Shown: positions 10,873-35,698 of the stretch, piece by piece
Numbering within the stretch: position 1 is the first letter of the stretch
Layout of the letters: each line of letters begins with the position of its first letter
Origin: a virus
Taxonomy: Duplodnaviria; Heunggongvirae; Uroviricota; Caudoviricetes
Length of the DNA stretch: 64,000 nt
Direction: 5' to 3' (one strand)
IMG/VR virus record: IMGVR_UViG_3300003267_000376
The notes under the pieces: generated by a model
Database searches by the model: none
What the model saw: the letters and a program-made list of their open reading frames with translations, nothing else
What the model was told of the DNA's origin: nothing
Made by a program: the position numbers and the translations under genes

Positions 10873-11190
10873 GTGTTGCGCTTCGTTACCGGCAATACCA
10901 AGCCATACCTCAACGGCACGATCTTCCTCGAGGAGGATCCCAGCACGCCGGTGAACCTCACCGGCTGCACGGTGCGAATCCAGATGCGGAAGGCCGATGA
11001 CCGCCGCTTCACGGTGAACCAGGAGGTCACCACCGTGACCGACGCGCTCAACGGCCAGGTGCAGTACCAGTGGGGCGAGAACGACCTCAATACCCCGGGG
11101 ATCTATCAGGTCCAGTTCGAGGTTACCTATCCCGATGACTCGACCCAGACCACCTCATCGCCGATTGATATTGAGGTGCGGCGCGCATGA
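10873..11190 (+). CDS. hypothetical protein
   Basis: A GTG start follows an AGGAG RBS. The 105-aa product is beta-rich. Confidence 0.5.
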   Translation: MLRFVTGNTKPYLNGTIFLEEDPSTPVNLTGCTVRIQMRKADDRRFTVNQEVTTVTDALNGQVQYQWGENDLNTPGIYQVQFEVTYPDDSTQTTSSPIDIEVRRA

Positions 11191-16845: not shown

Positions 16846-16852
16846 GCCTCTG

Positions 16853-16886: not shown

Positions 16887-16910
16887 ACCTCCATATGTCT
16901 GGAGTTCGCC

Positions 16911-17801: not shown

Positions 17802-18166
17802 TGGGCCTGTTCAGCAATGGTCAGATCACCGGATTGCGGCGCATCGCCGAGCGCGCGCTGGACACCGATGTCACCATCCTGCGCCGCAGCGTCAGTAGTT
17901 CCGCCTATGGCGATAACGACACTGAGACCTTCACGGCCACCGAGACCGTGAAGGGGTGGCTTCGCTCTGTGCCAGAAGACCAGGTGCAAGTCAGCTACGG
18001 CACGGAGCAGGTGCCGGCCTCGCACCGCCTGTTTGTGGCGGTCGGCACCGACATTCAGCCGTATGACAAGGTCGTCATCGGTGGCTTGGAATTCAAGGTC
18101 ATCGATACCAGTGTGGAGAGTACCTACCGCGTACTGCTCCGGGTGATGCTGCGAAAGAGTGAGTAA
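17801..18166 (+). CDS. head-tail joining (head closure) protein
   Basis: 121 aa in the expected position, with a pattern like SPP1 gp16-type proteins. Confidence 0.55.
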   Translation: MGLFSNGQITGLRRIAERALDTDVTILRRSVSSSAYGDNDTETFTATETVKGWLRSVPEDQVQVSYGTEQVPASHRLFVAVGTDIQPYDKVVIGGLEFKVIDTSVESTYRVLLRVMLRKSE

Positions 18167-18801
18167 TGGCGGCCGAGCCGAAGCTCCTGACGCTCAATAC
18201 CGACAAGATTGTGGTAGCCATCCGGGGCGCGGTCATGGCAGGCATGAATCACACCGTGCTCGACATGGAAGTCATTGCCCGCCGCAAGGCACCGGTGCGC
18301 AAGGTCTTCAACCGCAAGGCCGGGCGTGGGCGCCGGGCGAACGACTTCTTCCCGACCTTTCGCGTGCGCTATCCCAACGGCAAAGTGCGCTTTGTCACCG
18401 GTGACTTTCGCGCTGTCGAGCAGGTCGGACCGAACAAGTTCAAGCTCGAGCACAAGCTAGCGGAGCGGGTGCTGACGGCACGCGGTCGGGGCTATCTAAA
18501 GACTGGAGCGAACACGCTGCAGTTTGTGCATGCCGGTGATCGGATCATCCGTGTCGGCCGCAATGGTGGCGTCTTCAATGGCCGGCTGGGTGGTCGCCTC
18601 CGGCATGAAATCACTGCGGTGTTTGCCACCTGGGACGGGTCTCGTGCGCAGGGTGGGCTCATCTCGCCCACACCGTACGCCAAGTTCATGGAGCTGGGGA
18701 CCCGCTACGTCAAAAAACGCCCGTTCCTGCGCCCCGCCCTGCAGCACGAACGTGAGCACTACCGCGACAACATTATTCGGGCGCTCAGGGGATTGCGCTG
18801 A
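18166..18801 (+). CDS. HK97 gp10-like neck/tail-completion protein
   Basis: The C-terminal GTRYVKKRPFLRPAL motif is typical of the HK97 gp10 family. Confidence 0.55.
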   Translation: MAAEPKLLTLNTDKIVVAIRGAVMAGMNHTVLDMEVIARRKAPVRKVFNRKAGRGRRANDFFPTFRVRYPNGKVRFVTGDFRAVEQVGPNKFKLEHKLAERVLTARGRGYLKTGANTLQFVHAGDRIIRVGRNGGVFNGRLGGRLRHEITAVFATWDGSRAQGGLISPTPYAKFMELGTRYVKKRPFLRPALQHEREHYRDNIIRALRGLR

Positions 18802-19259
18802 TGCCAGTTACAAGTAGCGCCAAGATTAAACAAGCTCTTGTGGCGACGATGCGAGCTGATACCTCGCTTCGCACAGCAGTGAATGGCTTCCACGAGAGTT
18901 TCGCTCCGGCCAAGACGAACTACCCGTTCGTGACGTATGACCGCGTGAGCGCGCCATACGACTACGACTGGAGCAGCGTCACGCTCCGTAGCTACTGGGA
19001 TATCCAGGTGTGGAGCCGGAGTTCCGTCGAGGCTGAGGACCTCGATGCGCTCGTGACCACTGTCCTCAACGATGCGTCGTTGGTGGTGGCCGGGCAGTCC
19101 ACCCTTATCTGTCGTCGATATGCCGATCTGGGAGATCGCGATGTCGACGAGGAGGGGCAACCGATCTACATGGCTGGCGGCACCTACGAGGTGTGGACCA
19201 GCCAACCCGTCCCGCAACACGAGGAGACCTCGTTTGCCGCGGACGCGGTGCTTCTCTAA
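18801..19259 (+). CDS. tail terminator-like protein with C-terminal repeat-unit tag
   Basis: Position and size fit a tail terminator. The product ends in ETSFAADAVLL, identical in type to the 14-aa fibre repeat. Confidence 0.45.
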   Translation: MPVTSSAKIKQALVATMRADTSLRTAVNGFHESFAPAKTNYPFVTYDRVSAPYDYDWSSVTLRSYWDIQVWSRSSVEAEDLDALVTTVLNDASLVVAGQSTLICRRYADLGDRDVDEEGQPIYMAGGTYEVWTSQPVPQHEETSFAADAVLL

Positions 19260-19273
19260 CGAAAGGGTAACCC

Positions 19274-19699
19274 ATGGCTGCTAACAGCGGCACCAAGCTT
19301 CACGGCAAGAATGGTGCAATCTATCTCGATGGTCCGAAGGGGTCCGGCACCAAGGTCGCAACCAAGGCGGAGTGGACGCTCGCCCTGAACCGCGACTACG
19401 TGGATGCCACCGTCTTCGGTGAGACCAACAAGACCTATCTGGTCGGTCTGAAGGATATCTCGGGCACCTATGCGGGCCTGCTGGACGTGTCCGGCGACCT
19501 GCTGGTGAACGCGACCAGCTCGGACACGGTGAACATCTACCTGTACGCCGATGACCGCGGTGGTTCCGAGGTCCTGATCGCTTCTGGCCCTGGCCTGTTC
19601 GATGCCTCGATCAACGCCAGCAACACGGACGCGGTGCGCGTGACGGGTAACTTCCGCGCGGCCGGCTCGTGGGCCGTCTTCAGCTCTGGCTCGCTCTAA
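19274..19699 (+). CDS. major tail (tube) protein
   Basis: 141 aa and Gly/Ser/Thr-rich. The gene lies between the terminator gene and the chaperones. Confidence 0.5.
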   Translation: MAANSGTKLHGKNGAIYLDGPKGSGTKVATKAEWTLALNRDYVDATVFGETNKTYLVGLKDISGTYAGLLDVSGDLLVNATSSDTVNIYLYADDRGGSEVLIASGPGLFDASINASNTDAVRVTGNFRAAGSWAVFSSGSL

Positions 19700-19777
19700 G
19701 CCGAGTCCATAGCTTATCGTGGGAACCGGTGAACGGCCCGGGCTCTCAACCCTCACCTCCGATAGGAGAAGGATCAG

Positions 19778-20083
19778 ATGTACGTTCGCTCCCTAACCGG
19801 GACGGAAGGAGAGGTCTCCTTTCCGCTCATCGGCGCCCAAGTCGGGATCTTCAAGAGCTGGCAGCTCAATCGGCACGAGGACAATGGGGCCCACGAAGGG
19901 CCATTCGTTCTGCGTGCCGTTTTTTCGTACGTGAATCCATTGCTGTGGGATCAGCCCTACACGCGGCGGGTGATCATACGGATCGGCAAGAAGACCTACC
20001 GGCTCGAACAGGCGGCCGATGCGAAGACTGAACTGGTCCACCAGCAGCTCATCATGGAAGGAGTCTCTCTATGCCCGCTCTAG
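19778..20083 (+). CDS. hypothetical tail assembly protein
   Basis: 101-aa ORF immediately upstream of the G/G-T chaperone pair. Confidence 0.4.
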   Translation: MYVRSLTGTEGEVSFPLIGAQVGIFKSWQLNRHEDNGAHEGPFVLRAVFSYVNPLLWDQPYTRRVIIRIGKKTYRLEQAADAKTELVHQQLIMEGVSLCPL

Positions 20084-20382
20084 ACACCCGCAAGATCAAG
20101 GTGCGCGGCACCAAGTACACCATTCGCGAGCTCACTGCCGGTGAATACGATGATTGCGTGCGCGCCGCGACCAATGCCGAGGATGAAGTAGATACCGTTC
20201 TGTTGGCTAAGCTCATGGCGCTGAAGTGCGTCGAGCCGGTGATGACTGATGTCGAGCAGAGCGGCTTGCCATTCCGGGTGTGGCGCGCCATCAACCGTGC
20301 CATCAATGAACTCCATTATGTTGCGGAAGAGACTGACGAGGGAAACGCCTCCGACCCGAAGAACGACTCTACTGGGAGCTAG
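20071..20382 (+). CDS. tail assembly chaperone (gpG-like)
   Basis: Small acidic protein immediately upstream of the tape measure gene. Confidence 0.6.
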   Translation: MPALDTRKIKVRGTKYTIRELTAGEYDDCVRAATNAEDEVDTVLLAKLMALKCVEPVMTDVEQSGLPFRVWRAINRAINELHYVAEETDEGNASDPKNDSTGS

Positions 20383-20570
20383 GCGCCACCTTTGGCGTGC
20401 TCCCGCACGTGATTCGGGATCTTCCGTTTAGCGAATACGTCATGCTCCGAGCCGGTTTGCTCGATCGCGCCGATGCCCGGAGGAAGGCCATGGAGGCCGC
20501 GCAGAATGGGGACAACCCATTGGCCGACGCTCCATGGGAGGCTGAGTCGGTGACCACCCTCGCCGACTGA
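20071..20570 (+). CDS. tail assembly chaperone G-T fusion produced by -1 programmed frameshift
   Basis: The -1 frame stays open from the slip site to a TGA at 20568-20570. The predicted extension is ...GKRLRPEERLYWELGATFGVLPHVIRDLPFSEYVMLRAGLL... Confidence 0.55.
20340..20346 (+). other. slippery heptamer G GGA AAC (X XXY YYZ) for -1 ribosomal frameshifting
   Basis: The reading frame was checked by hand. Codons GAG GGA AAC lie in the G frame, 36 nt before its stop. Confidence 0.55.
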
Positions 20571-20580
20571 GGACACGCCC

Positions 20581-23500
20581 GTGGCCCAAGAACTCGATGC
20601 CATTAGCGTCAATATCTATGCTGATGTTTCTCAGCTCGAAAGCGACGTCAAGAAGGCTGCCAAGTCCATTGACGATCTCCAGGAACGCACCCGCAAGAAG
20701 GTAGCCCGGTTGGGCGTTGGCTTCCGCCAGGGTGATATCGCCGCTATGGACAAGGAGCTGGACACCCTTGCCAAGAAGCCGCGCGAGATTACCGTCAATC
20801 TGGTCGCCACCCCAGACAAGGAATCGAAGGCAAAGTTCAAGGGTGACATCGAGACCGCCCTTAACCGTGGGCAACCCATCCGGGTCAAGACCACGGTGCA
20901 GCTGGATAAGTCGAACATTGATTCCATGCGGCAGGCGATCAAGAACGCCGTGGCTGGTATCAAGGCCACCGTCAATGTCGAAGGCCGCTGGATGGGCTGG
21001 GAAGGTGGCGAACCACCGACCGACATCATCAACATCCGCGGGGGCGGCTCGGGGCCGGGTGGGGCCCCAGCTGGCGGCACGGTCCACATTCAAGAAGAAG
21101 TCAAGAAGGCGCTCAACGAGGCGCTGAGCGGCGAACGCGTGGCGCAGCCCGCTCCATCGAGCGTGGTCGAGCGCCCCGAGACCAAGCACACTGAAAAATC
21201 AAGCACCGTCGTCGGTGGCCCGGCAGGGACAACCCGTACCACGGAGGAGGTCACCAAGAAGACCACCACTGAGGCGGTGCCGAGCTCCAATGTCGTGGCC
21301 AATCCCAAGCCGCGGGCGGACCAGATGCAGCCAGCGGCACGGGAAACGACCCTCGAGCCCGGCTATGCCCAGGGTGCCACGGTCATGTCCGGCAAGCACC
21401 CCGGTGGCCAGTCCGTCACGGTCACCAAGGGCATGGCTGATATGGAAGAGAAGATCCGGCTCGACCGCAAGGAAGAGATCAATGATCTGCTCGGCCTGCT
21501 CAAGAAGCTCAAGATCGGGTTTGACCCAGATCTCGGGACGGTGGGGGTCGAGGGCCGCCGTCCGTCCAAGATCGCGAACTTCGATTTCTCCAAGGCGGTG
21601 TTCCCCAAGAAGGGCGTGACGCCGGAGATGTTCGGTCAACTGGCCAGCATGGGGATTGATGCCACTGGCGATCCGCTGGTGGTCCTCTCCCAGCTGCGTG
21701 AGAAGCTGACCGCTGCGGTCGACGCCTACAACGCCATCCAGCCCTTCCGCGCCATGGAAGAGGATGTTAACGGTCCCCAGCTGCGCCCTGGCAAGCGGGG
21801 CCAAACCGTGGCTGCGCACCCCGAAAGCATCCTGCGCCTGGCTCCCTCGCCAGACGATCTGTCCCCGGCCGAGCAGCGTGCCAACGAAGCGAAGCGCGCG
21901 ATCATGTTCGAGCAAGCCGCCGATCTCACCGAGGGTTCCATTCCTAAGGGCGAGATGGCCCTCGGTTTCACGCGTGGTGATATCCGCCGCCGTGAGCGTG
22001 TTAAGGGTGCCATCGCTGAACTTAAGGAGCAGCTGAGCGCTGGCGAAGCGCCCTTCCAGGCCGAAATGGAAGAGATGGCAGCGCTAGCCAAGGCAGCGGA
22101 GACTAACCCTGGAGGTCGCTATTCGGTCAAGCCGCGCGCACTGGTACCAGGTGACATTGCTCATGCGGGTCTACGCGTTGGTATGGATCGCGGGCTGCTC
22201 GAGGACTTGCTAGACCAGCCTGGTCACGATGCGGAGTCCTTCCAGCGCGCCCTAGAAGGCGCCTATGCCGAGAACGATATCGGTGAGGATTCGGACCTGA
22301 TCCAGAACTTCCGGGATGAGATTGCCCAGCTCAATCCGATGCAAGAGATCGACTTCCGCACTGCGGCGCTCAACATCGCCACTGGTCTCGAAGAGACCAT
22401 CGTCGGTCTCCAAAAGGGCGATCCGAAGTTCGCGCGCCAGGTCCGTGCTGCCCGTAAGGGTGAGCGCTCCAATCCAGGCTTGAAGCTCGTCTTCGATGCG
22501 ATCAACGCCACCCGCTCGCGGCTTGGCCGACTCGTACCACTGGATGTCAATAACCCCGAAGGCGAGCAATTCGCCGTAGGCGGTGAGCTGAACCGCTTGA
22601 GCGAAGAGGATCTCGGCGAGATCGCCGCCAATCAGGCGCGCGCCGAGTCTTCGCGCATGCTGAAACTATTTGAAGAGTTCAGCCAGACGAAAAACCCCAA
22701 GACCGGTCGTCCATTTGGCTTGCCAGCCATCAGGAATGACAACCCGGTTGCTCGCGATATTCAGCGGGTGTTGACCGATCGGCCGCGCATTCGCGCCGAG
22801 ATGAAGGCTGCCAAGAAGGAACTACGCAAGGGTGGACCGCAGCTGGATGAGCCCATCCCGGATCCGGAACGCACCAAGCTGTTGCGGCGTCAGGCCATCA
22901 TCGAAGGCGATCTGCGCACCACCGACGACGAGAGCGTGAAGCCTCGTCTCGCTGCCGAGTTGGGTGCCATCAAGCGCGAGCTGAGCACTCGACCGCGACG
23001 TACCCGACGTCAGTACCTCGAGAGCCTAACCCTCCCGCAGCTGCCGACGTTGCCGGCGGAGGTGGAAAAGCAGATCGCTCGCGGCGACCTCAGCCTCTTC
23101 CGTGCCACACCCGAATACCAAGATGCCTTCAGCCGCTTCGTCCGTGAGCGGGATGAAGAAGACAAGGACCGGCTGGAGACGCAAAACGAGCGCACCAGCC
23201 GCGCCCCGCGCCGCAAGATGCGCACCTCGAAGCCACTGGACGCGATGGATCTCGCGCTCCGCCGTGGCGCCATCGCGGAAGAACTCACCGGCGGAGCCTC
23301 AGGCAAGCATGCCGACAACCTGCGCGCTGAGCTAAAGGGCATCACCGAAGAGCTCGACCGCAACAAGACCTTCTATCTGAAGCAAGAACAGGAGGCGATT
23401 CTCGACAAGCTCAGCGATTCGGAGAATCCGCCAACCACCGCTGAGCGGCGCAAACTAATGCAGGCCTACGATCTCAAGTCAGCTGACGTCCTTGAGTCCG

Positions 23501-26500: not shown

Positions 26501-26799
26501 ACAACCGCGTGCCGGACAGTAAGGAGCATTTCGCCACCGGCGGTTTGTTTAACACCACCGGGCCGGTCGACATGACCGTGGGCGAGGCGGGCACTGAGAC
26601 GGTGGCCGTCCTGCGCAATCCGCGTGGCTTCTTCGCGAGCGGCATCGAGACCGGTAGCGTCAGCCTCAACATCAACGTCACCGGCAACACCGTCCGCAAC
26701 GAGGCGGATTTGGACGAATTGGTGCGGCGCATCACCAATGAAGTGCAATACGCCCTCGCGCAGCAGTCTGCGCTGCGTGGTCTGCGCTCGCCCGGCTGA
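20581..26799 (+). CDS. tape measure protein (2072 aa)
   Basis: A very long helical ORF follows the G/G-T pair. The start is GTG. Confidence 0.9.
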   Translation: MAQELDAISVNIYADVSQLESDVKKAAKSIDDLQERTRKKVARLGVGFRQGDIAAMDKELDTLAKKPREITVNLVATPDKESKAKFKGDIETALNRGQPIRVKTTVQLDKSNIDSMRQAIKNAVAGIKATVNVEGRWMGWEGGEPPTDIINIRGGGSGPGGAPAGGTVHIQEEVKKALNEALSGERVAQPAPSSVVERPETKHTEKSSTVVGGPAGTTRTTEEVTKKTTTEAVPSSNVVANPKPRADQMQPAARETTLEPGYAQGATVMSGKHPGGQSVTVTKGMADMEEKIRLDRKEEINDLLGLLKKLKIGFDPDLGTVGVEGRRPSKIANFDFSKAVFPKKGVTPEMFGQLASMGIDATGDPLVVLSQLREKLTAAVDAYNAIQPFRAMEEDVNGPQLRPGKRGQTVAAHPESILRLAPSPDDLSPAEQRANEAKRAIMFEQAADLTEGSIPKGEMALGFTRGDIRRRERVKGAIAELKEQLSAGEAPFQAEMEEMAALAKAAETNPGGRYSVKPRALVPGDIAHAGLRVGMDRGLLEDLLDQPGHDAESFQRALEGAYAENDIGEDSDLIQNFRDEIAQLNPMQEIDFRTAALNIATGLEETIVGLQKGDPKFARQVRAARKGERSNPGLKLVFDAINATRSRLGRLVPLDVNNPEGEQFAVGGELNRLSEEDLGEIAANQARAESSRMLKLFEEFSQTKNPKTGRPFGLPAIRNDNPVARDIQRVLTDRPRIRAEMKAAKKELRKGGPQLDEPIPDPERTKLLRRQAIIEGDLRTTDDESVKPRLAAELGAIKRELSTRPRRTRRQYLESLTLPQLPTLPAEVEKQIARGDLSLFRATPEYQDAFSRFVRERDEEDKDRLETQNERTSRAPRRKMRTSKPLDAMDLALRRGAIAEELTGGASGKHADNLRAELKGITEELDRNKTFYLKQEQEAILDKLSDSENPPTTAERRKLMQAYDLKSADVLESEADDLMKELQNPHRVGLIEHGEEAVLAKRQRATLLRRKYEITNPELPAYLQQFLAGGDEDLGEGPGATRRKARDPGLAIPTGKARLESTLVELEGMTPQLASGILRRKSGDTSVAQVEAALLYKQGLRAVGGQLVSAGGGPGGIQRVHVVNFKEIQSLLAKGGAAGGGSPQAGPTPAAVTANQPVTKLGGPSSTAQKIASRFFKGDIPFGVDPRVLEALEHPADAATIDQRLKELTASRETTKRTQELITSRSPTVAAGQALQALFGGRPEVITAIQQFNALKTEQGTLLRQRRVREQVTIPRLTIEREQAEAAGDTERALRKQDAIEKENLKTAFGEVRLQDIEDELPALKDQFEGFNPVLKSFTSLTLGAIGGTLLFGATLQAAQAGVQLIGAALKPGIELMTNYGEQAVVTSKALGELTSQAGGSAKAGVASALFSAGLPTNLTLRPELERAATVGAGLSALDQQDQLFKTAVNFRLNPNAGITFPVGGGPFGFNAENSALRRFKNNLGDVFQTQVFGALRLPGQTPEHDKAVIDAINDQFKDVGVKLVDEASSGLSEGALKAQRESLKQIDSEYDFLANQKVSEIVANQLEDRGLVLVGAESGKPLTGSQFQGALGGQIIEATKKSVDALIQAQEPQIQAQRATLQEQRQLNDRLSTVQFAVNSLENPPLPPGVGIPTGLNVAGAPQGPSTTSVQAFTQLQALRGLGQQQILDIVGKTFPERLDTVKSELRDINALSSQIAERQINLISEQQAHQVAVMNEQLYVAARNVRDLQALSGQGGGSVFGQWQRDILMANRQLTVLGQDSAKISLGISQRQLNLQRSLAGLGVAGETPEERFLRQKAVEEELKDQQRLLNNQGRAIAIQDRIIPLSFKVEDITLDRNFRDARKQLGLMRDEIRITADAAQAEEEIRNLSDLMQLKVNQLNNDIQAGVGDLNIEMQVYQQAVADTLGDWRKTRNVVSDIFQTLRGDNGTSGGGGTASNYVTINGVRYPDFNHNRVPDSKEHFATGGLFNTTGPVDMTVGEAGTETVAVLRNPRGFFASGIETGSVSLNINVTGNTVRNEADLDELVRRITNEVQYALAQQSALRGLRSPG

Positions 26800-29534
26800 T
26801 GGCGGTCATCGAGATTCGGCTGAATGGCACCGATATCACCAGTGACGTCATCTTCAAAGACGCATCCTTCACCTCGATGGCCAACGGCAACGTCGGTCCC
26901 TGTAGTTTTCGGGTGCGCGACCTTTTACATGTGTATTCCACCATCCGGATCGGTGATGAAATCACCCTTGATATCGATGGCGTCCGGGCCTGGGGTGGCT
27001 TCGTCAAGCAGCTCCGTCGCGGCTACTTCTTCGAGGCACGCGACTGCGAATGCCCGGAGACGACCCCCATCTACTACCAGATCATCGGGTCCGATTACAA
27101 CGTTTTGCTCAACCAGCGGTACCTCTTTGACCCCGATAACCCGGAAGCGACCCAGCTCCACGAGTTCCCGGCGGGCACCCCGGATAACGAAGTCATCGAT
27201 TACTACGTCACCAATTATCTCGATCTGAGCGGGGATGGGATCGATACCTCCACCTTGGTCGAACACGTTGGCACTCCTTCACTCGATACACCGATCAATG
27301 GCGCGGTGGGGATGAGCTGGAACCAGTTTATGGCGTTCATTGCCTACAACACTGGTTCGATCTGGTACCTCGATCCTGACAAGAAGCTGGTCTACTGCGA
27401 TGTCGACACACCCAACGCGCCGTACGAGATCAGCGACAACCCCGATCCGGGTCAGGTCGGGCCGCGCGAATACCGGGCCCTATTTGATGGTACCCGGCTG
27501 CGAAATGACGCGCTGGTCTGGGGCGTGGGTAAGGGCTCGGCCAATGCTGTCTTCGCGCGGGTGACCGATACCACTAGCGTCGCTAACCACAACCTCTGGC
27601 AGGTCGGCCGCGTGGTGGGCGGCATCTGGAAACAGGATACTGCTGACCGGACGGCCAACACCTACGTCAATGGCTCACCGCAAGGCAAGCGCGGCGGCAA
27701 GATGGATCGTCACTCGATCGATGCCGTGGTCTTCGAGCCAGGTCTGCGAGTAGCGCAGAAGGTGCACGCCTACTTTCAGGTCTTCGGTTACAACGAGATC
27801 ATCCCGATCCGAGTCCTGCAAATCACGTTTCCGACCGACCAGGACCCGAAATATCAGATCACGCTCGCTCATGAAATCGACGAGCCAGAGGATCTTACCG
27901 ACCCGCTCCCTGATAACCGTCCATATCAGGTCTGCACCAACATTCACTGTGGGCCCTTCCTTGATGGCGACTGGGATGTCGGCGCTCTAGGTGTGAGCTC
28001 AACCTCACTAACACAGCCTCTTGGTAGCCTTGAAGTACAAGACGGTCACAACAGCTGGACCGTGTTTGTGCCAGGCGGTACGTTGCACTGTCAACCCAAC
28101 ATGTGGCAGTGGCTAGCCGACAATACGGCCAAATCGTCAGGGACCTACCATGGCCGTGCCCACGTTGAACTGCAGTGGGCCGATCTCTATGGCTACACCG
28201 TCCTGCCCGGCCAGCTGTGCGAGAAGGGCGAAGCTGGCTGGGAAGTGGAAACGGGCTGGAAATTGGAGACCGTTCCGGCCGCCAATGCCCTCCCAGGAAC
28301 AACAGCAGCCTCCTGGAATGGGCTTGTGACGATGACCTTCACGGTCACCGGCACGACCTATCCGCGTCCACGCCCTGCCACGCGTCCGCTCTTTCCATTT
28401 ACCGCTTGGCCGGGTGTTTCGTTAGTGGCCCAGCAGGGGGTGGCCTTCGGTCTGATCTCCCCGAGCGATCTCACGCTGACGCCCATCGACTCACCATTTG
28501 GCACGACCTATAACGTTCCGCCAACGATCTGGCCCTATTCGGTCATTAGCACCGAAGGGACCACCGTGTTCCGTGACGAGGGAATCTACGTGCGCGGCGA
28601 GCGGTTTGTTGGCTATGCCACGCCAGATGTCGAATACACCGTGACGTTTGCGACCGGTACGTTCCCGGCCGGATCACAAGTCTGGCTCTACGGGTATTTG
28701 CCATTCATTGATTTTGCTAATGCCGCGGGGCGAGTGGAGGTGAATTACGATTTCACCATCGATTGGCGTCCAGCGCCAAGCGGCGGTGCCGTTATCCCCA
28801 ATCCCGACATCGGTGACTGTGTTCCACGCTGCATCACCATCGGATCGAACTGTGAGCAGGCCACTCGGTTGGGTCGCCGGTCATATCAAACCCTCGGCCT
28901 GTATAGCGTGGGCAGCACGCAGGTCTGGGTCAATGGTGTTGGCCAGGCCCTTGGTAGCGATTACACCGAATCTGATCCAGAAAACGGTGTAATCACCTTC
29001 ACCTATGACATCGCGACCGATGCGTTCGTCTACGTCTGCTATTACGCCAACACGCTCGCGAATCAACTGCCTAGCTATGCCGTCACCGACAACGTGCTGC
29101 AGGTACCGATTCACGGGGTTGGCATCACCGGCACCTTTGGACCGCAACTCGATTTCTGGCCGCCGATGGTCTGGCATGGGGTGTATTACCCGCACTTCCA
29201 CAATGGCGTGGATTTCGGTGCAGTGACCGGGACACCGGTCTATGCCTCGGCGGATGGGATCGTGCAATACGAAGATCAGGCCGCGGGTGGCACGATGATC
29301 CACATCTACCATGATTCACCAGCGACCCCGATCCCGATGCGAACGACCTACGCGCACTTGTCGCAACGGGTGGTGCCGCATGGAGCGGCGGTGTCCCAGG
29401 GCGACCACATCGCCTATTCCGGCAGTAGCGGTGACGTGACCGGGCCCCACCTACACTGGGGCGTCGACATCTACGGCTGGCCAGAGGATCCGTTGCCCTG
29501 GTCAAATACCCCTCGTACCACGGCGGTGTTGTAA
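26799..29534 (+). CDS. distal tail (Dit-like) protein with C-terminal M23 peptidase domain
   Basis: It immediately follows the tape measure gene. The N-terminus is paralogous to the next ORF. The C-terminus carries HFHNGVDFGAVTGTPVYASADG and GSSGDVTGPHLHW. Confidence 0.7.
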   Translation: MAVIEIRLNGTDITSDVIFKDASFTSMANGNVGPCSFRVRDLLHVYSTIRIGDEITLDIDGVRAWGGFVKQLRRGYFFEARDCECPETTPIYYQIIGSDYNVLLNQRYLFDPDNPEATQLHEFPAGTPDNEVIDYYVTNYLDLSGDGIDTSTLVEHVGTPSLDTPINGAVGMSWNQFMAFIAYNTGSIWYLDPDKKLVYCDVDTPNAPYEISDNPDPGQVGPREYRALFDGTRLRNDALVWGVGKGSANAVFARVTDTTSVANHNLWQVGRVVGGIWKQDTADRTANTYVNGSPQGKRGGKMDRHSIDAVVFEPGLRVAQKVHAYFQVFGYNEIIPIRVLQITFPTDQDPKYQITLAHEIDEPEDLTDPLPDNRPYQVCTNIHCGPFLDGDWDVGALGVSSTSLTQPLGSLEVQDGHNSWTVFVPGGTLHCQPNMWQWLADNTAKSSGTYHGRAHVELQWADLYGYTVLPGQLCEKGEAGWEVETGWKLETVPAANALPGTTAASWNGLVTMTFTVTGTTYPRPRPATRPLFPFTAWPGVSLVAQQGVAFGLISPSDLTLTPIDSPFGTTYNVPPTIWPYSVISTEGTTVFRDEGIYVRGERFVGYATPDVEYTVTFATGTFPAGSQVWLYGYLPFIDFANAAGRVEVNYDFTIDWRPAPSGGAVIPNPDIGDCVPRCITIGSNCEQATRLGRRSYQTLGLYSVGSTQVWVNGVGQALGSDYTESDPENGVITFTYDIATDAFVYVCYYANTLANQLPSYAVTDNVLQVPIHGVGITGTFGPQLDFWPPMVWHGVYYPHFHNGVDFGAVTGTPVYASADGIVQYEDQAAGGTMIHIYHDSPATPIPMRTTYAHLSQRVVPHGAAVSQGDHIAYSGSSGDVTGPHLHWGVDIYGWPEDPLPWSNTPRTTAVL

Positions 29535-31069: not shown

Positions 31070-31072
31070 GCC

Positions 31073-31465
31073 ATGGCCCACGATCGGACGCTCGACCACT
31101 ACGGAACCGAAGACACCACCACCGCGGTCCTAAGTGCTGATATTGGCCGATATCCCGCCGGCACTAGCCTGCAGGACGTGCTCGCCGACATGGTGGCGCG
31201 CATCGAAAGCCTAGAGCTTGGTTGCGCGACCCACCAATATGTTACGGCCAACGCCTTCATCGCCAATTACCTCACCGCCAATGCGGTCTTCAAGAAGACC
31301 CAGGACGGTGGCGGCTCGCCCTTCCAGTTCATCGCCGATGCCTCGATCGGCACTGGCACCTTTAGTTTTGCCTTCACCGCCAACGCGGTGTTGCGTTCGA
31401 TTACCAGCAGCGGGACACAGACGATCACCGCCGATGGCTTCCTCATCGATGACGTGGTGTGCTAG
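31073..31465 (+). CDS. small repeat-motif protein
   Basis: The 130-aa product is made almost entirely of FTANAV-type units. Confidence 0.45.
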   Translation: MAHDRTLDHYGTEDTTTAVLSADIGRYPAGTSLQDVLADMVARIESLELGCATHQYVTANAFIANYLTANAVFKKTQDGGGSPFQFIADASIGTGTFSFAFTANAVLRSITSSGTQTITADGFLIDDVVC

Positions 31466-31477
31466 AGGGCTAGACAG

Positions 31478-34400
31478 ATGGCATCTCCTAGCATTGCCTC
31501 CACAGGGACTAGTCAGCAGACCACTGACCAAACATCGCACACCATGGCGATGCCATCTGGCATCCAGTCCGGCGATCTGCTGGTCGCAATCTTCGTTACT
31601 GATGGTGTGCCAAGTATCTCAGGATGGCCAGCGGGATGGACGTCATTCCCACGAATTAACGGTGGATCGAATAACACCAACAGTTCGCAGGTGGCCTATA
31701 AGTTCGCCGATGGGACCGAGTCGAACTTCACCCTAACGACCAGTGCCGCCGAGACATCGATCTCCCGTTGCTTTCGTATTACCGGGCATGCTGGTTCAAC
31801 TAGACCGCCCCTAGTACGCCCCTCTTCAGATTCAGGGCCAGCATCGGTTGTTCCCAAAGTTGAAGCATGGGAGTGGTCGCAACCACAAGACATTCTTTCG
31901 ATCGTTGCTGTTGGTTGGGAGAACACAACTCCTACGCCCACTCCCAGCGGCTACACCAACAACGTCAATAGTTCGACTGGCGGGGCCTCGGGAACGGGCA
32001 TCCGGGTTGAGACCCAAGCAATCTCTGGTTTTACTGGCTCAGAAAACCCCGCCGACTACACCACTGGCAGTGGTGATCGCGCAATCTGGACCATTCTTAT
32101 TCCTTCGGATTCCAGCGCTCCCGATCTGACCTTTCCCATTGCTCGAAACTGGTTCGAGAAGACCTCCGGTAGCAGCTCTAGCGTCAATATTACAATCCCA
32201 CGGCAGAGTGTTAGCGGTGACATTCTATTCGCTGCGATTGGTCTCGCTACCAATGTCACCATTTCCTCGGGATTGCCGAGCGGCTGGACCACACAGGTAA
32301 GCGTAGCGGGGGGTGGATCAGGCGGCGAACGCATGTACTTCCTGTGGAAGGTGTGCGACGGGTCTGAAACCGACTTCACGCTCACCATGAGCGGTTCCTC
32401 AGCCTACTCGACGCTATCGGGCGCCGTTCTCAACGCTCAGGATGTCGTTTCATCGGCCACCGCCACCGGTGGCGCTAACGCAAACCCCAATCCCCCGAAC
32501 CTAAACGCCATCGGTCACCTATGGGTCGCCGAGATGCAGCATGAGGGACGTACCGTCTCCTCATACCCGACCAACTACACGCACCGCCAGGAAAGCCCAC
32601 AGCTGACCACGGCCAGTATTGCACTCGCCTTCCGCCAACTCAGCGCTAACAGTGAAGACCCAGGCACGTATACCGACAGCGGTTCATCATTCTGGACGGC
32701 TGCCACCATCGCCTTTTTGCGACCATCCACCACGGCGTCCATCACGGCCGATGGTGTCATCCAAGGATTGACGCTGTTCACTGCTGATGCGGTCATCCAG
32801 GCCAGTGTTGCTGGATCACTGACAGCAAACGCCGATCTACTCGCCACGAGCACGGCCAGCTTCAGCGCCGATGCACTGATTGCCGCCACGATCACCAGCA
32901 GCATTAGCGGCGATGCGGTCATCCTCGCGACCGTTGCTCAGAACCTAGCTGGCGACGGTATTGTCCTCACTACCACATCGGCTAGCCTGACAGCGGACGC
33001 CGCCTTCTCCTCGACGGTGTCCGTGGAGGGCAATATCACTGCTGATGCGGTGATCCTTGCCACACTAGCTGCATCGGTAGCTGGCGATGCCGTGCTGCGT
33101 ACCACAAGCCCCGGCTCGATCACGGCTGATGGAATCGTACGTGTCACCACAGCAGCCTCCTTTAGTGTCGATGCGGTCGTACCCCCGTACTTCGTCGCCG
33201 ATGCGGTCCTTCTCGGCCTCACGCACTTCACCGCTGACGCGATCGTGCGGCTGGTCGCCTCAGCCTCCTTCACGGCCGATGCGGTCGTCTTCTTCGAACT
33301 ATACGAGTTCACGTTCACCGCGGACGCGCTAATCTTTGGCATCGTCTGGTTCGATGACTTCAATCGTGCCAATGAGAACCCGTTGGGTGATCCATATCGC
33401 CATATGCTCGGCGATGAAGCGCAGATTATCTCCAATGAGCTGGTCCAGCCTTACGACACGATCAACAGTTTGACCACCTTCAGCGGATATCGCGGTTATG
33501 CCGTTGTTCCCGCCATTAGCATCAACCAGATCGACATCTTCATTCCAGCCTCGCCGGACAACAATTTCTACCTTGAGATCGATAATCGCGGCATTTTGGG
33601 AAGTGATGGCCAATGGTACGGCCAGTTCTGGTGGATGTTCTGGGATAGCGGTAGCGACTTTTTGATCGCTTCGGACAGCCTTAACGAAACAGTCACGCTG
33701 ACGCTGAACACCTGGTACACCATCAAGGTGATGCATGGGGACAACGATCACCCCACACGATTGAAATACTGGCCGCGCGCTACCACTGAACCATCCGCGT
33801 GGCAGGTTGAGGTGGCCAACTCGTTCTCTTACGCAACCGAGCCCTTCTCCGATCAATTGGGCTTGTTCTTGGGTAGTGGCGACCCGACTGATACGCGAGC
33901 CGACAACTTCCTCATCGCTTCCACCGAGAGCGGTGCGTTCGTAGGCTTTGGGTCCTTGACGGCCGCCGCTGTCCTGTTCAAGACCCAGGTCTTTGCTGGG
34001 GTTAATCCAGATGGACCGGAGCCGTATGCAGTCAGTACGGGTACGGCTAATGGGTTGGGCGGTTCACTCAGTTTCTTGAACCCGCCGGGCGCCGTGGTGG
34101 GTGACTTTGCCGTCGTGATCGGCGCCATTACTGGTGCAGCGACCACGAATCAAATCGGTGGGGTCGGCGGTAGTCTGAGTGACACGATTTTTACGAAAGC
34201 AGGCTTCTGGACCCCATCCAACTCTAACCTGACGTTTGCCGTCTTTTATGCCACCGTAACAGCCGACTTCTTCGGTGGCTGGCCATCGATCAGTTGGTCG
34301 TGGTCGTCTGGATCGAGCTTCCGGGCCGCGGTGTTGCTGGTAATACGCCGTACCCAGCATTTCGTACGGAACGTCACGCCCTATTTCGATACCACCAGTA

Positions 34401-35698
34401 CTGACCAACAGACCATTCCGGCTGGAACCGCCGAGCTTGCCTTCGATAATAGCTTGGCCATCCTTGGATTCGGCTCTGCCACCACCGGGGTCACCTCGTT
34501 CCTTCCTCCCATCAATGCCGTGGAATGGGCGGATGTCAATGCCACCAATGGGTTTACCCATGTGGCCCTCGAGGTGGCGCTCTCACCGCAATTTGCTGGT
34601 AGCACACCAGCCTGGACAGCAGATTCGCAAGGTGCCAACACGGGGACCTACGCCGTCATTGTGGAGGTTCCCACCATCGCGGGGCTCACTGCGGACGCTT
34701 ACCTGAAAGGTAATGCCTTCACGCTGGATGCCTATCTCATCCCAGATCCTAATCAGACGTACCCGGTCATCTTCGAAGACCGCTTCGATGATCGGATCAC
34801 GACCAATGGCTGGGGCGGCGTGTGGCAACCCACCCAGCTCGATAACGCCGGGCTCACGGCGGATGGCACCGCTGGGGTGAACACTGCCGATGCAACCTAC
34901 AGTCTGACGGGGTATCCGTTGGTCGGCGCCTATGCCAGCTACGCCTTCGACCTGAAGTTCGTCACGCGCAGCACGTTCTCGTTTATCCGCCTCGAAAGCA
35001 ATGATCACACTGGCCTATCGCTGCAATTATTCATCAATGGCGCAGGGGGCGTCATTCTGAACGGCGTCAGCGGCAGCTGGGCCGACGTTCCCAACCAGTG
35101 GTTCTCGGTGCTGGTCAACATCTTCCCCGATCGAGCCGATGTCTATCTCTGGCCGCGCGGCACGGCGCAGCCGGGTGTGCGCACCATTGGCGCCGCCAAC
35201 ATCGTGTCGACGTTCTTCGAGACCGAGCTCGACATCGCGGCACCGAATGGTGATGTGCGGATCGACAATTTTGTTGTGGCATCGCTGGTCGGTACGTGGC
35301 AACGCCGGTATCTCGTCTTTGGCGATGCCATCGTCAAACGAACGATGACCACCCATGCCGTATTCGGATTTCCGGTCGACAACACCATCCTCTGCGAGGC
35401 CGAAATCGCGCGTGGCTTCAAGGCCGATGCAGTCGTCACCAATGCCACCCCCCGCACCGTCACCGCCAATGCGGTGCTGGTGACGTATTTCCTGTTCCAC
35501 GCCGATGCCGTGCTACATGACGACACCCGGGTACAGCATGCCCGCAGTGGGCCTGACCACACTGGCGTCGACTACGAGCTGGTGCACACCCTTGCCGCCT
35601 CGATCGGGTTCAACCCGGTCTATCTGGCGGGGACCAATCTGCGCGATCTGTTGATCGCCATCGACGAGCGGCTCAGCGAGCTGGAAGCGTCGCAATAA
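31478..35698 (+). CDS. tail fibre / receptor-binding protein with repeat array and two ConA-like lectin domains
   Basis: The 1406-aa ORF has 14-aa repeats at roughly aa 420-620. Two regions (around 33330-33930 and 34750-35290) have ConA/LamG-like patterns (FDDF...W, DNFLIAS/DNFVVAS). Confidence 0.7.
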   Translation: MASPSIASTGTSQQTTDQTSHTMAMPSGIQSGDLLVAIFVTDGVPSISGWPAGWTSFPRINGGSNNTNSSQVAYKFADGTESNFTLTTSAAETSISRCFRITGHAGSTRPPLVRPSSDSGPASVVPKVEAWEWSQPQDILSIVAVGWENTTPTPTPSGYTNNVNSSTGGASGTGIRVETQAISGFTGSENPADYTTGSGDRAIWTILIPSDSSAPDLTFPIARNWFEKTSGSSSSVNITIPRQSVSGDILFAAIGLATNVTISSGLPSGWTTQVSVAGGGSGGERMYFLWKVCDGSETDFTLTMSGSSAYSTLSGAVLNAQDVVSSATATGGANANPNPPNLNAIGHLWVAEMQHEGRTVSSYPTNYTHRQESPQLTTASIALAFRQLSANSEDPGTYTDSGSSFWTAATIAFLRPSTTASITADGVIQGLTLFTADAVIQASVAGSLTANADLLATSTASFSADALIAATITSSISGDAVILATVAQNLAGDGIVLTTTSASLTADAAFSSTVSVEGNITADAVILATLAASVAGDAVLRTTSPGSITADGIVRVTTAASFSVDAVVPPYFVADAVLLGLTHFTADAIVRLVASASFTADAVVFFELYEFTFTADALIFGIVWFDDFNRANENPLGDPYRHMLGDEAQIISNELVQPYDTINSLTTFSGYRGYAVVPAISINQIDIFIPASPDNNFYLEIDNRGILGSDGQWYGQFWWMFWDSGSDFLIASDSLNETVTLTLNTWYTIKVMHGDNDHPTRLKYWPRATTEPSAWQVEVANSFSYATEPFSDQLGLFLGSGDPTDTRADNFLIASTESGAFVGFGSLTAAAVLFKTQVFAGVNPDGPEPYAVSTGTANGLGGSLSFLNPPGAVVGDFAVVIGAITGAATTNQIGGVGGSLSDTIFTKAGFWTPSNSNLTFAVFYATVTADFFGGWPSISWSWSSGSSFRAAVLLVIRRTQHFVRNVTPYFDTTSTDQQTIPAGTAELAFDNSLAILGFGSATTGVTSFLPPINAVEWADVNATNGFTHVALEVALSPQFAGSTPAWTADSQGANTGTYAVIVEVPTIAGLTADAYLKGNAFTLDAYLIPDPNQTYPVIFEDRFDDRITTNGWGGVWQPTQLDNAGLTADGTAGVNTADATYSLTGYPLVGAYASYAFDLKFVTRSTFSFIRLESNDHTGLSLQLFINGAGGVILNGVSGSWADVPNQWFSVLVNIFPDRADVYLWPRGTAQPGVRTIGAANIVSTFFETELDIAAPNGDVRIDNFVVASLVGTWQRRYLVFGDAIVKRTMTTHAVFGFPVDNTILCEAEIARGFKADAVVTNATPRTVTANAVLVTYFLFHADAVLHDDTRVQHARSGPDHTGVDYELVHTLAASIGFNPVYLAGTNLRDLLIAIDERLSELEASQ
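32740..33330 (+). repeat. array of 42-nt in-frame repeats (same family as 7650-10690)
   Basis: TADAVI/TADGIV units at 14-aa spacing. Confidence 0.75.

What the first reader, a model, noticed from the sequence alone, without database searches (positions are those of the whole stretch)
18801..35698. The same 14-aa repeat unit is shared as a module or C-terminal tag by at least four different structural ORFs
Besides the giant ORF, the unit (S/T-x-S-F-x-A-D-A-V-hydrophobic-hydrophobic) forms a ~200-aa array inside the 1406-aa tail fibre (32740-33330). It makes up most of the 130-aa ORF at 31073-31465. It also appears once as the extreme C-terminus (ETSFAADAVLL) of the tail-terminator-like protein at 18801-19259. 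A weaker RFTADTVL is seen at the C-terminus of the 60-aa ORF at 11187-11369. A single copy appended to a core virion protein looks like a docking or recognition tag. It could allow repeat-containing fibres to co-assemble with or attach to the particle. It could equally be a motif recognised by the co-encoded modifying enzymes.
Basis: partly seen in the sequence, partly recalled or inferred. Interest (0 to 1): 0.75.

Follow-up and report, generated by a model that had tools for sequence, protein, structure and literature searches.

The report
Fibre-repeat tag on phage tail terminator
An uncultured phage ends its tail-terminator protein with one conserved copy of the 14-residue unit that builds its giant fibre proteins, and related phages carry that end unit on the giant protein instead, which hints at (but does not prove) a way of fastening a fibre near the phage neck.

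Summary

- **The repeat.** A 14-aa unit (T-Q-S-A-S-F-T-A-D-A-V-L-L-K) builds arrays in the 1807-aa ORF (5440-10863) and the 1406-aa fibre (31478-35698). It is degenerate in the 130-aa ORF.
- **The tag.** The tail terminator (18801-19259, PF11367) ends in exactly one unit. It scores 23.4 bits; the best background hit in the window scores 12.7.
- **Conservation.** 45 of 87 homologue clusters, down to about 45% identity, end in the same unit. They share a fixed-length linker and the same stop position.
- **The weak fifth match.** The match in the 60-aa ORF is chance.
- **New result.** The giant protein in every relative has the same layout: array, then a 9-aa-periodic tail. In 17 of 22 genomes with an untagged terminator it then ends in one terminal unit. 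In 9 of 9 genomes with a tagged terminator it does not.

I infer that the terminal unit works either in cis or in trans, and that the terminator's copy docks onto the giant fibre. Caveats: only about three independent tagged lineages exist, no structure was obtained for the array, and the position of the terminator's C-terminus in the ring is unknown. The repeat matches no Pfam, PHROG, NCBIfam or PDB entry, and no relative was found among 50,697 GenBank phage records.

The parts
5440..10863 (+). Giant repeat protein (1807 aa): non-repeat domains alternating with arrays of the 14-aa unit
   Evidence: Translation. 62 PSSM hits >=8 bits. Syntenic homologues lie upstream of the head genes in nearly all related contigs. 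No Pfam, PHROG or NCBIfam hit.
7642..8319 (+). Array 1 of the giant protein (aa 735-960, about 16 units in strict 14-aa register)
   Evidence: Unit list with spacing.
8884..10689 (+). Array 2 of the giant protein (aa 1149-1750, about 43 units, with a few 10-aa short units)
   Evidence: Unit list.
10735..10860 (+). C-terminal tail of ~9-aa periodic repeats (HGAALAGEF HAAALAAST HGAGLAAGA HAAALAADI SRTGLS). The protein stops here, with no terminal 14-aa unit.
   Evidence: Every relative has an equivalent 9-mer segment. In 17 of 22 genomes with an untagged terminator it is followed by a short linker and one terminal unit.
10873..11190 (+). 105-aa BppU_N/Rib-like protein, always encoded directly after the giant gene; a candidate ring or adaptor partner
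   Evidence: PF10651 E=1.4e-10. Conserved position in L082, L083, L085, L087 and L091.
18801..19259 (+). Tail terminator (152 aa; PF11367 / DUF3168 / SPP1 gp17-like)
   Evidence: Pfam 43.5 bits. PHROG tail-terminator hits. AF2 pLDDT 89.4 for residues 1-136. Foldseek matches RcGTA, lambda gpU, T5 p142, Mu and Bxb1 terminators.
19206..19217 (+). Short Pro-rich linker (PVPQ, aa 136-139) between the terminator core (ends at Q135) and the tag
   Evidence: The distance from Q135 to F of the tag is 9 residues in most of the 45 tagged homologues and 11 in the QPLLQK- group (7 of the 45). The P-[LI]-P motif recurs.
19218..19256 (+). Terminal 14-aa-type unit (HEETSFAADAVLL, aa 140-152, unit positions 1-13) forming the extreme C-terminus
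   Evidence: 23.4 bits against a 12.7-bit background maximum. Conserved in 45 of 87 clusters, and 43 of 45 stop at unit position 13. AF2 pLDDT falls from 63 to 48 and the segment is coil. At most 23 of 33 nt match any repeat copy, so there has been no recent gene conversion.
31073..31465 (+). 130-aa ORF: an N-terminal ~50-aa domain paralogous to the fibre's C-terminal domain, then about 5 degenerate (N-for-D) units
31478..35698 (+). 1406-aa tail fibre with an internal 14-unit array and scattered single units; it ends ...IDERLSELEASQ with no terminal unit
32735..33337 (+). Repeat array inside the 1406-aa fibre (aa 420-620)
   Evidence: 14 PSSM hits of 10.6-28.4 bits.
13146..14414 (+). GT4 glycosyltransferase (context for the rival 'modification motif' reading)
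   Evidence: PF00534, PF13692 and PF20706; phrog_2170.

Best explanation
The 14-aa unit is the building block of an undescribed repeat fold, most likely a beta-rich stack, used by the fibre-like proteins of an uncultured actinobacterial-type siphophage lineage.

One special copy, the 'terminal unit', always forms a protein's extreme C-terminus and ends at unit position 13. It acts as a closing or docking element for an array. In most relatives this copy is in cis, at the end of the giant repeat protein, after a 9-aa-periodic tail. In this window and in about half of the terminator family it has moved to the C-terminus of the hexameric tail terminator, on a short linker of fixed length.

Proposed mechanism (inferred): the terminator's unit adds onto the C-terminal end of the giant protein's array, by beta-strand or rung complementation, in the place its own terminal unit would otherwise occupy. 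This would tether up to six giant fibres at the head-tail junction. The conserved BppU_N-like protein may act as a ring or adaptor partner.

Shown: homology of the tag to the units, conservation of the tag, its fixed geometry, and its mutual exclusivity with the cis unit.

Inferred: physical contact, location at the neck, and the beta-stack fold.
For: 1. The tag is a genuine unit: 23.4 bits against a 12.7-bit background maximum.
2. It is under selection. 45 of 87 homologue clusters, down to about 45% identity, keep F6 (38/45), D9 (38/45), A10 (45/45), V11 (40/45) and I/L12 (42/45), while the linker sequence varies. 43 of 45 stop at position 13, and the linker is 9 or 11 residues. More distant terminators carry variant tags such as TLTSTIA*, ITINATIA* and FTADSEIA*.
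3. Similarity is kept at the protein level, not the DNA level.
4. Cis/trans exclusivity holds in 31 genomes: tagged terminators 9 without and 0 with a cis terminal unit; untagged 5 without and 17 with (Fisher p=1e-4, not corrected for phylogeny).
5. Among 10,763 ORF ends in all loci held at that call (L001-L092 and the window), terminal units occur only on terminators and giant proteins.
6. Terminal units form a distinct subtype. Position 8 is bulky (L/I/M/V/F) in 37 of 60 terminal units against about 20% of 885 internal units.
7. In three clade-2 genomes the tag is most similar to the last array unit of that genome's own giant protein (rank 1 of 38, 30 and 38). In L084 both carry the rare G at position 9, encoded by different codons.
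8. AF2 models the terminator core confidently but leaves the linker and tag as low-confidence coil.
9. Position 9 residues (D 63%, N 16%, S 9%, A 5%, E 2%, G 2%) are, from my own knowledge, the set typical of a beta-arc or ladder residue. The low-confidence AF2 model of an array shows short strands at 14-aa period.
10. There is precedent for neck-anchored fibres with BppU_N-like ring domains: the NPS of TP901-1 (PMC10747895).
Against: - The exclusivity rests on few independent events. On an NJ tree of the terminators the tagged genomes fall into about three clades, and their nearest untagged neighbours (L091, L014) also lack the cis unit. Counted by lineage, the association is not statistically significant.
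- Five genomes have neither a tag nor a cis unit, so the element is dispensable or is supplied from outside the 20-kb loci.
- No structure was obtained for the array. AF2 on a cis-type protein gave pLDDT 46, so the beta-stack fold and the fold-back geometry are conjecture.
- The position of the terminator's C-terminus in the ring is unknown. In T5 the terminator's C-terminus lies at the subunit interface, and a C-terminal His tag may fold into the lumen (PMC11784142). With a linker this short, the tag might not reach the outer surface.
- Nothing shows that the giant protein is located at the neck.
- In clades 1 and 3 the tag is not especially similar to the last array unit.
Confidence: 0.4

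Rival explanations
1. The binding site is on the neck, not on the array. Under this reading the terminal unit is a C-terminal peptide that inserts into a groove of the terminator, stopper or first tail-tube ring. In genomes with a cis unit, the giant fibre's C-terminus docks there. In genomes with a tagged terminator, the terminator fills its own or its neighbour's groove, stabilising the ring or blocking the site.
For: - It explains the same cis/trans exclusivity.
- C-terminal arms commonly mediate ring-to-ring contacts in siphophage tails. The TP901-1 major tail protein's C-terminus inserts between terminator monomers (PMC10747895), and the T5 terminator's C-terminus lies at the subunit interface (PMC11784142).
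- The very short, fixed linker suits a partner close to the ring.
Against: - It does not explain why the peptide is a genuine copy of the fibre repeat unit.
- It does not explain why the tag resembles the last array unit of the same genome in clade 2, including the shared rare G9 in L084.
- AF2 does not dock the tag on the monomer core, although a monomer cannot show an inter-subunit groove.
Confidence: 0.22
2. The unit is a recognition motif for a co-encoded modifying enzyme or assembly factor, such as an O-glycosyltransferase acting on S5/T7 or a fibre chaperone. Under this reading the terminator merely acquired one substrate motif.
For: - The neighbourhood is rich in sugar enzymes: a weak GT2-like hit at 474-1331, an NAD epimerase at 2498-3427 and a GT4 at 13146-14414.
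- S5 and T/S7 are well conserved in the tags.
- From my own knowledge, not checked here: phage-encoded glycosyltransferases modify C-terminal regions of capsid and tail-tube proteins in some mycobacteriophages.
Against: - The most conserved tag residues are F6, D9, A10, V11 and I12.
- A modification motif has no obvious reason to sit at the extreme C-terminus, stop at one fixed position, or keep a fixed linker.
- GT4 is present whether the terminator is tagged or not.
- L092 has arrays but no glycosyltransferase at that position.
- It does not predict exclusivity with the cis unit.
Confidence: 0.1
3. The terminal unit is a C-terminal oligomerisation or registration peptide that nucleates folding of a trimeric fibre. 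Under this reading the six terminator tags template two trimers, and fibre folding is coupled to neck assembly.
For: - Terminal units also close other array proteins after a non-repeat domain (P0118, P0129, P0133, P0141, P0102, P0103), where a C-terminal registration element would sit.
- AF2 monomer models of arrays have low confidence, as is typical for obligate oligomers.
Against: - No evidence on oligomeric state was obtained.
- A single 13-residue strand is small for a nucleation domain.
- This overlaps the best explanation rather than excluding it.
Confidence: 0.12
4. The tag is a neutral by-product: a fragment of repeat DNA recombined onto the 3' end of the terminator gene, with no function.
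For: Repeat-rich genes in the same genome provide abundant donor sequence. The tag state changed at least 6 times on the NJ tree.
Against: - The tag is conserved down to about 45% identity, with position-specific constraint and an invariant stop position, while the linker drifts.
- There is no DNA-level similarity beyond what the shared amino acids require.
- More distant terminators carry matching variant tags.
Confidence: 0.03

Closest known systems
Tail terminator proteins (lambda gpU, SPP1 gp17, RcGTA g8, T5 p142; Pfam PF11367 / DUF3168)
   Same: The 18801-19259 protein is a member by sequence, fold and gene position.
   Different: None of the papers I read on terminators describes a C-terminal extension that copies a fibre repeat unit. 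About half of this subfamily has one.
Neck passage structure / collar-whisker fibres of lactococcal phages (TP901-1 NPS) and T4 fibritin whiskers
   Same: Both are long fibres anchored at the head-tail junction. NPS uses a BppU_N-like domain to form a collar ring (PMC10747895). Here a BppU_N-like gene always follows the giant fibre gene.
   Different: The BppU_N-like domain here is a separate 105-aa protein, not the fibre's N-terminus. Anchoring through a repeat unit donated by the terminator has no described counterpart. Neck location is unproven here.
Donor-strand complementation (chaperone-usher pili) and split-domain peptide tags (SpyTag/CnaB2). Comparison from my own knowledge, not tested.
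   Same: A short C-terminal beta-strand supplied in trans completes another protein's beta structure. The tag core (hydrophobic-x-x-D-A-hydrophobic) loosely resembles the VDAY core of SpyTag.
   Different: No Ig or CnaB fold has been detected. D9 is replaced by N, S, A or G in 37% of units, and no conserved Lys/Glu partner is evident, so covalent isopeptide chemistry is not indicated.
Capped beta-solenoid / beta-roll repeat proteins (RTX beta-rolls; antifreeze beta-helices with 12-15-residue coils). Comparison from my own knowledge.
   Same: Short, regular units with one nearly invariant D/N-type position, alternating small and hydrophobic residues, and a distinct terminal 'cap' unit.
   Different: The fold is not established (AF2 pLDDT 46), there is no sequence or PDB match, and no Ca-binding GGxGxD motif.
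Rosetta-stone (gene-fusion) inference of protein interaction
   Same: A module found on protein A in some genomes and on protein B in others, never on both, suggests that A and B work together.
   Different: The module here is 13 residues, not a domain, and the number of independent transfers is small (about three tagged lineages).

Membership tests
Tail terminator (PF11367 Tail_completion_gp17 / DUF3168; lambda gpU-like) | Sequence match above Pfam's gathering score | tested here: met
   43.5 bits against a cut-off of 24.5, E=4e-11. PHROG tail-terminator families 123, 347 and 78 also hit.
Tail terminator (PF11367 Tail_completion_gp17 / DUF3168; lambda gpU-like) | Terminator fold (helix-flanked beta-sheet related to the tail-tube fold) | tested here: met
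   AF2 pLDDT 89.4. Foldseek matches RcGTA terminator 6tba_4A (TMq 0.70, TMt 0.79), lambda gpU 3fz2, T5 p142 8bcp, and Mu, Bxb1 and monocin cap proteins, all at probability 1.00.
Tail terminator (PF11367 Tail_completion_gp17 / DUF3168; lambda gpU-like) | Gene lies between the head-tail connector genes and the major tail protein gene | tested here: met
   Adaptor 16782-17801, Neck1-like 18166-18801, terminator 18801-19259, major tail protein 19274-19699. The same order holds in the relatives.
Tail terminator (PF11367 Tail_completion_gp17 / DUF3168; lambda gpU-like) | Forms a hexameric ring capping the tail tube | not testable with these tools
   Only monomer prediction was available.
Neck passage structure / collar fibres (TP901-1 NPS type) | Fibre carries an N-terminal BppU_N-like ring-forming domain | tested here: not met
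   The giant protein has no Pfam hit. The BppU_N-like domain is a separate 105-aa ORF immediately downstream.
Neck passage structure / collar fibres (TP901-1 NPS type) | Distal carbohydrate-binding modules | tested here: inconclusive
   The window's giant ORF has no domain hit. Some array-bearing homologues carry PF13385 Laminin_G_3 (P0089, P0122, P0134, P0137, P0146).
Neck passage structure / collar fibres (TP901-1 NPS type) | Located at the head-tail junction of the virion | not testable with these tools
   Needs EM or mass spectrometry of particles. No relative was found in the GenBank phage record collection.
Beta-solenoid / beta-roll repeat proteins | Regular short repeats with a ladder or arc residue and an alternating hydrophobic pattern | tested here: met
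   Strict 14-aa register. Position 9 is D/N/S/A/E/G, and positions 6, 8, 10, 11 and 12 are hydrophobic or small.
Beta-solenoid / beta-roll repeat proteins | Stacked-coil three-dimensional structure | tested here: inconclusive
   AF2 of P0102 gave pLDDT 46, with 3-5-residue strands at 14-aa period. No PDB sequence relative was found.
Isopeptide split tags (SpyTag/CnaB2-like) | Invariant reactive Asp/Asn paired with conserved Lys and catalytic Glu in a CnaB/Ig fold | tested here: not met
   Position 9 is S, A, G or E in about 19% of units. There is no conserved Lys, and no CnaB or Ig Pfam hit in the array proteins.
Phage virion glycosylation substrates | Phage-encoded glycosyltransferase in the structural module | tested here: met
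   GT4 at 13146-14414 and an epimerase at 2498-3427.
Phage virion glycosylation substrates | Glycan attached to the motif | not testable with these tools
   Requires mass spectrometry or glycostaining.

The most novel reading that the evidence does not exclude
The phage uses a 'split repeat' docking system. A core neck protein, the tail terminator, carries the final rung of a beta-stacked repeat array. A giant fibre that lacks its own final rung can complete or cap its array only on the terminator hexamer. This would couple fibre folding and attachment to virion assembly. The same 13-residue terminal unit would serve as a portable tag that evolution moves between proteins: the giant protein's C-terminus, the terminator's C-terminus, and tail fibres that end in a unit after the 'HTG...DERL' domain. 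That would make it a natural analogue of engineered peptide-tag/catcher pairs.
Probability: 0.3. Interest if true: 0.8.

Novelty: new variant of a known kind. Interest (0 to 1): 0.62.

Why it matters
How accessory fibres attach to the neck of long-tailed phages is largely unknown. [quoted passage not shown]

A 13-residue, position-fixed tag on a core ring protein that copies the fibre's own repeat would be a simple and portable attachment principle. It would also be directly testable. It points to a large repeat family with no Pfam, PHROG, NCBIfam or PDB match. That family is common in metagenomic phages that have no relative in the GenBank phage record collection. It would also give a sequence rule for predicting which virion proteins contact which fibres, and a possible natural peptide-tag/array pair for engineering.

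If the docking idea is wrong, the result still stands that about half of a terminator subfamily carries a conserved fibre-repeat C-terminus of unknown role.

Tried and rejected
- **Chance match.** Rejected by PSSM background and by conservation.
- **Recent gene conversion or recombination remnant.** Rejected. At most 23 of 33 nt are identical to any unit in the window. Codons differ between the tag and the last array unit in L083, L084 and L087.
- **The 60-aa ORF as a fifth carrier.** Rejected.
- **Tag required for repeat fibres.** Rejected. Arrays are present in genomes with untagged terminators.
- **A third tagged protein in genomes with neither tag nor cis unit.** None was found within +/-10 kb of the terminator.
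- **Alternative frame or frameshift** giving the window's giant ORF a terminal unit: none.
- **AF2 of a cis-type array protein** (P0102 with a 30-sequence alignment): pLDDT 46, unusable. I ran no fold search on it.
- **PDB sequence searches** with the terminator profile and with an array: no relevant hit.
- **Phage genome record collection (GenBank/INPHARED).** Megablast, and tblastn with the terminator, an array and the major capsid protein: no match.
- **The search for related loci anchored on the 911-aa protein:** nothing.
- **Literature.** Searches for 14-residue phage fibre repeats and for terminator C-terminal extensions found no description of this feature.
- **P0260**, a 2457-aa hit to the terminator profile, is an unrelated repetitive protein.
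- **Shared N-terminal 'GDLLV' domain** between the giant ORF and the fibre: only E=0.086, so not claimed.


Full report
**Setting.** The window holds the structural module of a siphovirus-like phage with GC about 0.61. The genes, in order, are:
- sugar-modifying enzymes and an M23 peptidase (474-5399);
- a 1807-aa repeat protein (5440-10863);
- a 105-aa BppU_N/Rib-like protein (10873-11190);
- a GT4 glycosyltransferase (13146-14414);
- prohead protease, capsid and connector genes;
- a tail terminator (18801-19259);
- major tail protein, chaperones and a 2072-aa tape measure protein;
- two large distal tail proteins;
- a 130-aa ORF (31073-31465) and a 1406-aa fibre (31478-35698).

No relative was found among 50,697 GenBank phage records, by DNA or by protein. 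Relatives are metagenomic. One contig is binned with a Lysinibacter (Microbacteriaceae) MAG.

**Checking the observation.**
- Fifty units cut from the giant ORF give the consensus T-Q-S-A-S-F-T-A-D-A-V-L-L-K. F6, A8, D9, A10, V/I11 and L/I/V12 are the strongest positions.
- A 10-column PSSM finds 62 units in the giant ORF and 14 in the fibre array at 32735-33337, plus scattered single units later in the fibre.
- The terminator ends ...WTSQ-PVPQ-HEETSFAADAVLL*. TSFAADAVLL scores 23.4 bits, while the best hit anywhere else in the six-frame translation of 64 kb scores 12.7 bits.
- A strict regex hits only the two large repeat proteins and this C-terminus.
- The 130-aa ORF is only partly repeat. 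Its first ~50 residues are paralogous to the fibre's C-terminal domain (E=1e-6). The rest has about five degenerate units, mostly N for D.
- The RFTADTVL match in the 60-aa ORF scores 6.6 bits and is not conserved in four orthologues, so it is chance.

**The tag is conserved.**
- A search with the terminator returned 87 homologue clusters. Forty-five end in the same unit, and one more (P0019) ends in two degenerate units.
- Position frequencies across the 45 are F6 38, D9 38, A10 45, V11 40 and I/L12 42. The preceding linker varies in sequence but not in length: 9 residues from the core's last Q to F6, or 11 in the QPLLQK- group (7 of the 45).
- Forty-three of 45 proteins stop exactly at unit position 13.
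- A profile search of representatives clustered at 50% identity shows more distant terminators with variant C-terminal units, such as TLTSTIA*, ITINATIA* and FTADSEIA*.
- The tag DNA is no closer to any repeat copy than the shared amino acids require: 23 of 33 nt at best. The similarity is therefore maintained at the protein level.
- The protein is a tail terminator by Pfam (43.5 bits against 24.5) and by fold. AF2 gives pLDDT 89.4 for residues 1-136, and Foldseek matches the RcGTA, lambda gpU, T5 p142, Mu and Bxb1 terminators.
- The linker and tag are modelled as coil, with pLDDT falling from 63 to 48.

**Comparative genomics.**
- I fetched 172 related loci. Synteny is conserved: giant repeat protein, BppU_N-like protein, (GT4), protease, capsid, connector, terminator, major tail protein, tape measure protein.
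- The giant repeat protein is present whether or not the terminator is tagged. The tag is therefore not needed for repeat proteins to exist.
- The giant proteins share an unreported C-terminal layout. After the 14-aa array comes a boundary, often an HP motif, and then 3-6 copies of a ~9-aa periodic segment. Examples are STTTADTIA GTTTAGTIE GSLSAATIA PSLSARTMD in L078, and HGAALAGEF HAAALAAST HGAGLAAGA HAAALAADI in the window.
- In 17 of 22 genomes with an untagged terminator, the protein then continues with a short basic linker and exactly one more unit that ends the protein. Examples: ...SYFTLDAEVV*, ...KSFTIDAVIV*, ...GSFTADAVIVL*.
- In all 9 genomes with a tagged terminator (window, L003, L013, L082-L085, L087, L126) the giant protein stops right after the 9-mer segment. 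The raw Fisher p is 1e-4.
- Among 10,763 ORF ends in all loci held at that call (L001-L092 and the window), on both strands, terminal units at >=10 bits occur only on terminators and giant proteins: 28 on the coding strand and none on the other.
- Terminal units, whether on terminators or on giant proteins, are a subtype. Position 8 is bulky in 37 of 60 terminal units against about 20% of 885 internal units.

**Limits of that evidence.**
- On NJ trees of the terminator core, the tagged genomes form about three clades. The minimum number of tag-state changes is 6.
- The nearest untagged neighbours of two tagged clades (L091, L014) also lack the cis unit. Fourteen of the 17 cis-unit genomes sit in one half of the tree. 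Counted by lineage, the exclusivity is suggestive and not statistically secure.
- Five genomes have neither element.

**Further links between the tag and the array.**
- In the three clade-2 genomes with a full giant gene, the tag is most similar to the last array unit of the same genome (rank 1 of 38, 30 and 38).
- In L084 the tag (FTAGAVII) and the last unit (FTVGAVIT) both carry G at position 9. G9 is found in 2% of units and in 1 of 45 tags. The codons differ and only 22 of 30 nt are shared.
- This pattern is absent in clades 1 and 3.
- Array proteins from other phages also often end in one unit after a non-repeat domain: P0118, P0129, P0133 and P0141 after the domain that ends the window's fibre, and P0102 and P0103 after a 9-mer segment. 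'Array, insert, terminal unit' is therefore a general layout of this family.

**Structure.**
- AF2 of a cis-type protein (P0102) gave pLDDT 46. The array showed 3-5-residue strands at 14-aa period, which is not reliable.
- The repeat has no PDB, Pfam, PHROG or NCBIfam match.
- The residue spectrum at position 9 (D 63%, N 16%, S 9%, A 5%, E 2%, G 2%) and the alternating small and hydrophobic pattern fit a stacked beta structure with an Asx ladder or arc. This rests on general knowledge of beta-solenoids and is an inference.

**Mechanism.**
- My best reading (confidence 0.4) is that the terminal unit closes or docks onto the end of an array. It is normally supplied in cis by the giant protein. 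In this phage it is supplied in trans by the terminator hexamer, which would tether the giant protein at the head-tail junction. The conserved BppU_N-like protein would then be a possible ring partner, by analogy with the lactococcal NPS collar (PMC10747895).
- The main rival (0.22) reverses the polarity. The unit binds a groove in the neck, so the giant protein docks in cis-type phages and the tagged terminator occupies its own site. This fits what is known of C-terminal arms in tail rings (PMC10747895; PMC11784142). It does not explain why the peptide copies the fibre unit.
- A modification-motif reading (0.1) is not excluded. It fails to predict the fixed terminus, the fixed linker and the exclusivity.
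- A registration-peptide reading (0.12) overlaps the best one. A neutral remnant (0.03) is very unlikely.
- The key unknown is where the terminator's C-terminus emerges in the assembled ring. The RcGTA and T5 papers do not settle this for this subfamily.

**Verdict.**
The docking interpretation is partly supported, by conservation and by a cis/trans distribution, but not by any structural or physical evidence.
- It is a new variant of known themes, namely neck-anchored fibres and strand complementation, built on an undescribed repeat family.

Noticed in passing
window 10735-10860; giant-protein C-termini in L003, L013, L036, L043, L078, L081, L082, L085, L092 and others: All giant repeat proteins end their 14-aa array with a second, unrelated segment of ~9-aa period, 3-6 copies long, often after an 'HP' boundary. 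Typical pattern: (S/T)xxxAxTIx. In the window: HxAALAxxx.
   Followed up: partly
window 10873-11190 (and L082 1853-2170, L083 3011-3328, L085 1514-1828, L087 3326-3646, L091 2054-2365): A ~105-aa BppU_N/Rib-like protein is always encoded immediately after the giant repeat gene. The BppU_N domain forms attachment rings in lactococcal baseplates and is proposed for neck collars, so this may be the fibre's ring adaptor.
   Followed up: partly
window 31073-31240 and 35480-35695: The N-terminus of the 130-aa ORF is paralogous to the C-terminal ~45 aa of the 1406-aa fibre (39% identity, E=1e-6). In homologues from other phages (P0118, P0129, P0133, P0141) this domain is followed by one terminal unit. 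The window's fibre stops without one.
   Followed up: partly
window 474-1331, 2498-3427, 13146-14414: The structural region carries a weak GT2-like hit, an NAD-dependent epimerase/dehydratase and a GT4 glycosyltransferase. This suggests glycosylation of the virion or of a host surface glycan. GT4 sits between the giant-fibre genes and the prohead protease in most relatives.
   Followed up: no
window 4629-5399 and 26799-29534 (C-terminal ~100 aa): Two M23 peptidase domains are present: one in a 256-aa protein upstream of the giant ORF and one at the C-terminus of the 911-aa distal tail protein. The 911-aa and 511-aa proteins also look alike at their N-termini (by eye).
   Followed up: no
L091 11753-19093: The 2446-aa tape measure protein of a close relative with an untagged terminator carries precomputed Pfam hits to ADP-ribosylating exotoxin (PF03496) and to a Prok-JAB domain (PF14464). 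That is unusual cargo for a tape measure protein.
   Followed up: no
P0019, P0085 (terminator homologues): Two terminator homologues end in two consecutive units instead of one, for example ...ASTANAVIRRVPASSFSADAEVA*.
   Followed up: no
P0211, P0217, P0220, P0235, P0244 (distant terminator representatives): More distant terminators (E 1e-25 to 1e-11) carry C-terminal extensions of a variant type, such as ...TLETTLTSTIA*, ...TLAITINATIA*, ...SIVFTADSEIA* and ...LTVTLDSTIA*. The habit of tagging the terminator with a fibre-type unit may reach well beyond this lineage.
   Followed up: partly
L084 3011-3040 and 10501-10530: The terminator tag and the last array unit of the giant protein both have the rare Gly at the normally Asp position 9, encoded by different codons. 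This is a single case of possible co-variation.
   Followed up: yes
P0088-P0165: The 14-aa array is combined with many different N- and C-terminal domains in 200-640-aa metagenomic proteins. Recurrent endings include '...WEYWDG..W.P....GV......GNEARYTV...L....WYRRVRAG' and '...LRTFWFGSVEAGF'. Some carry Laminin_G_3. All are annotated as hypothetical.
   Followed up: no
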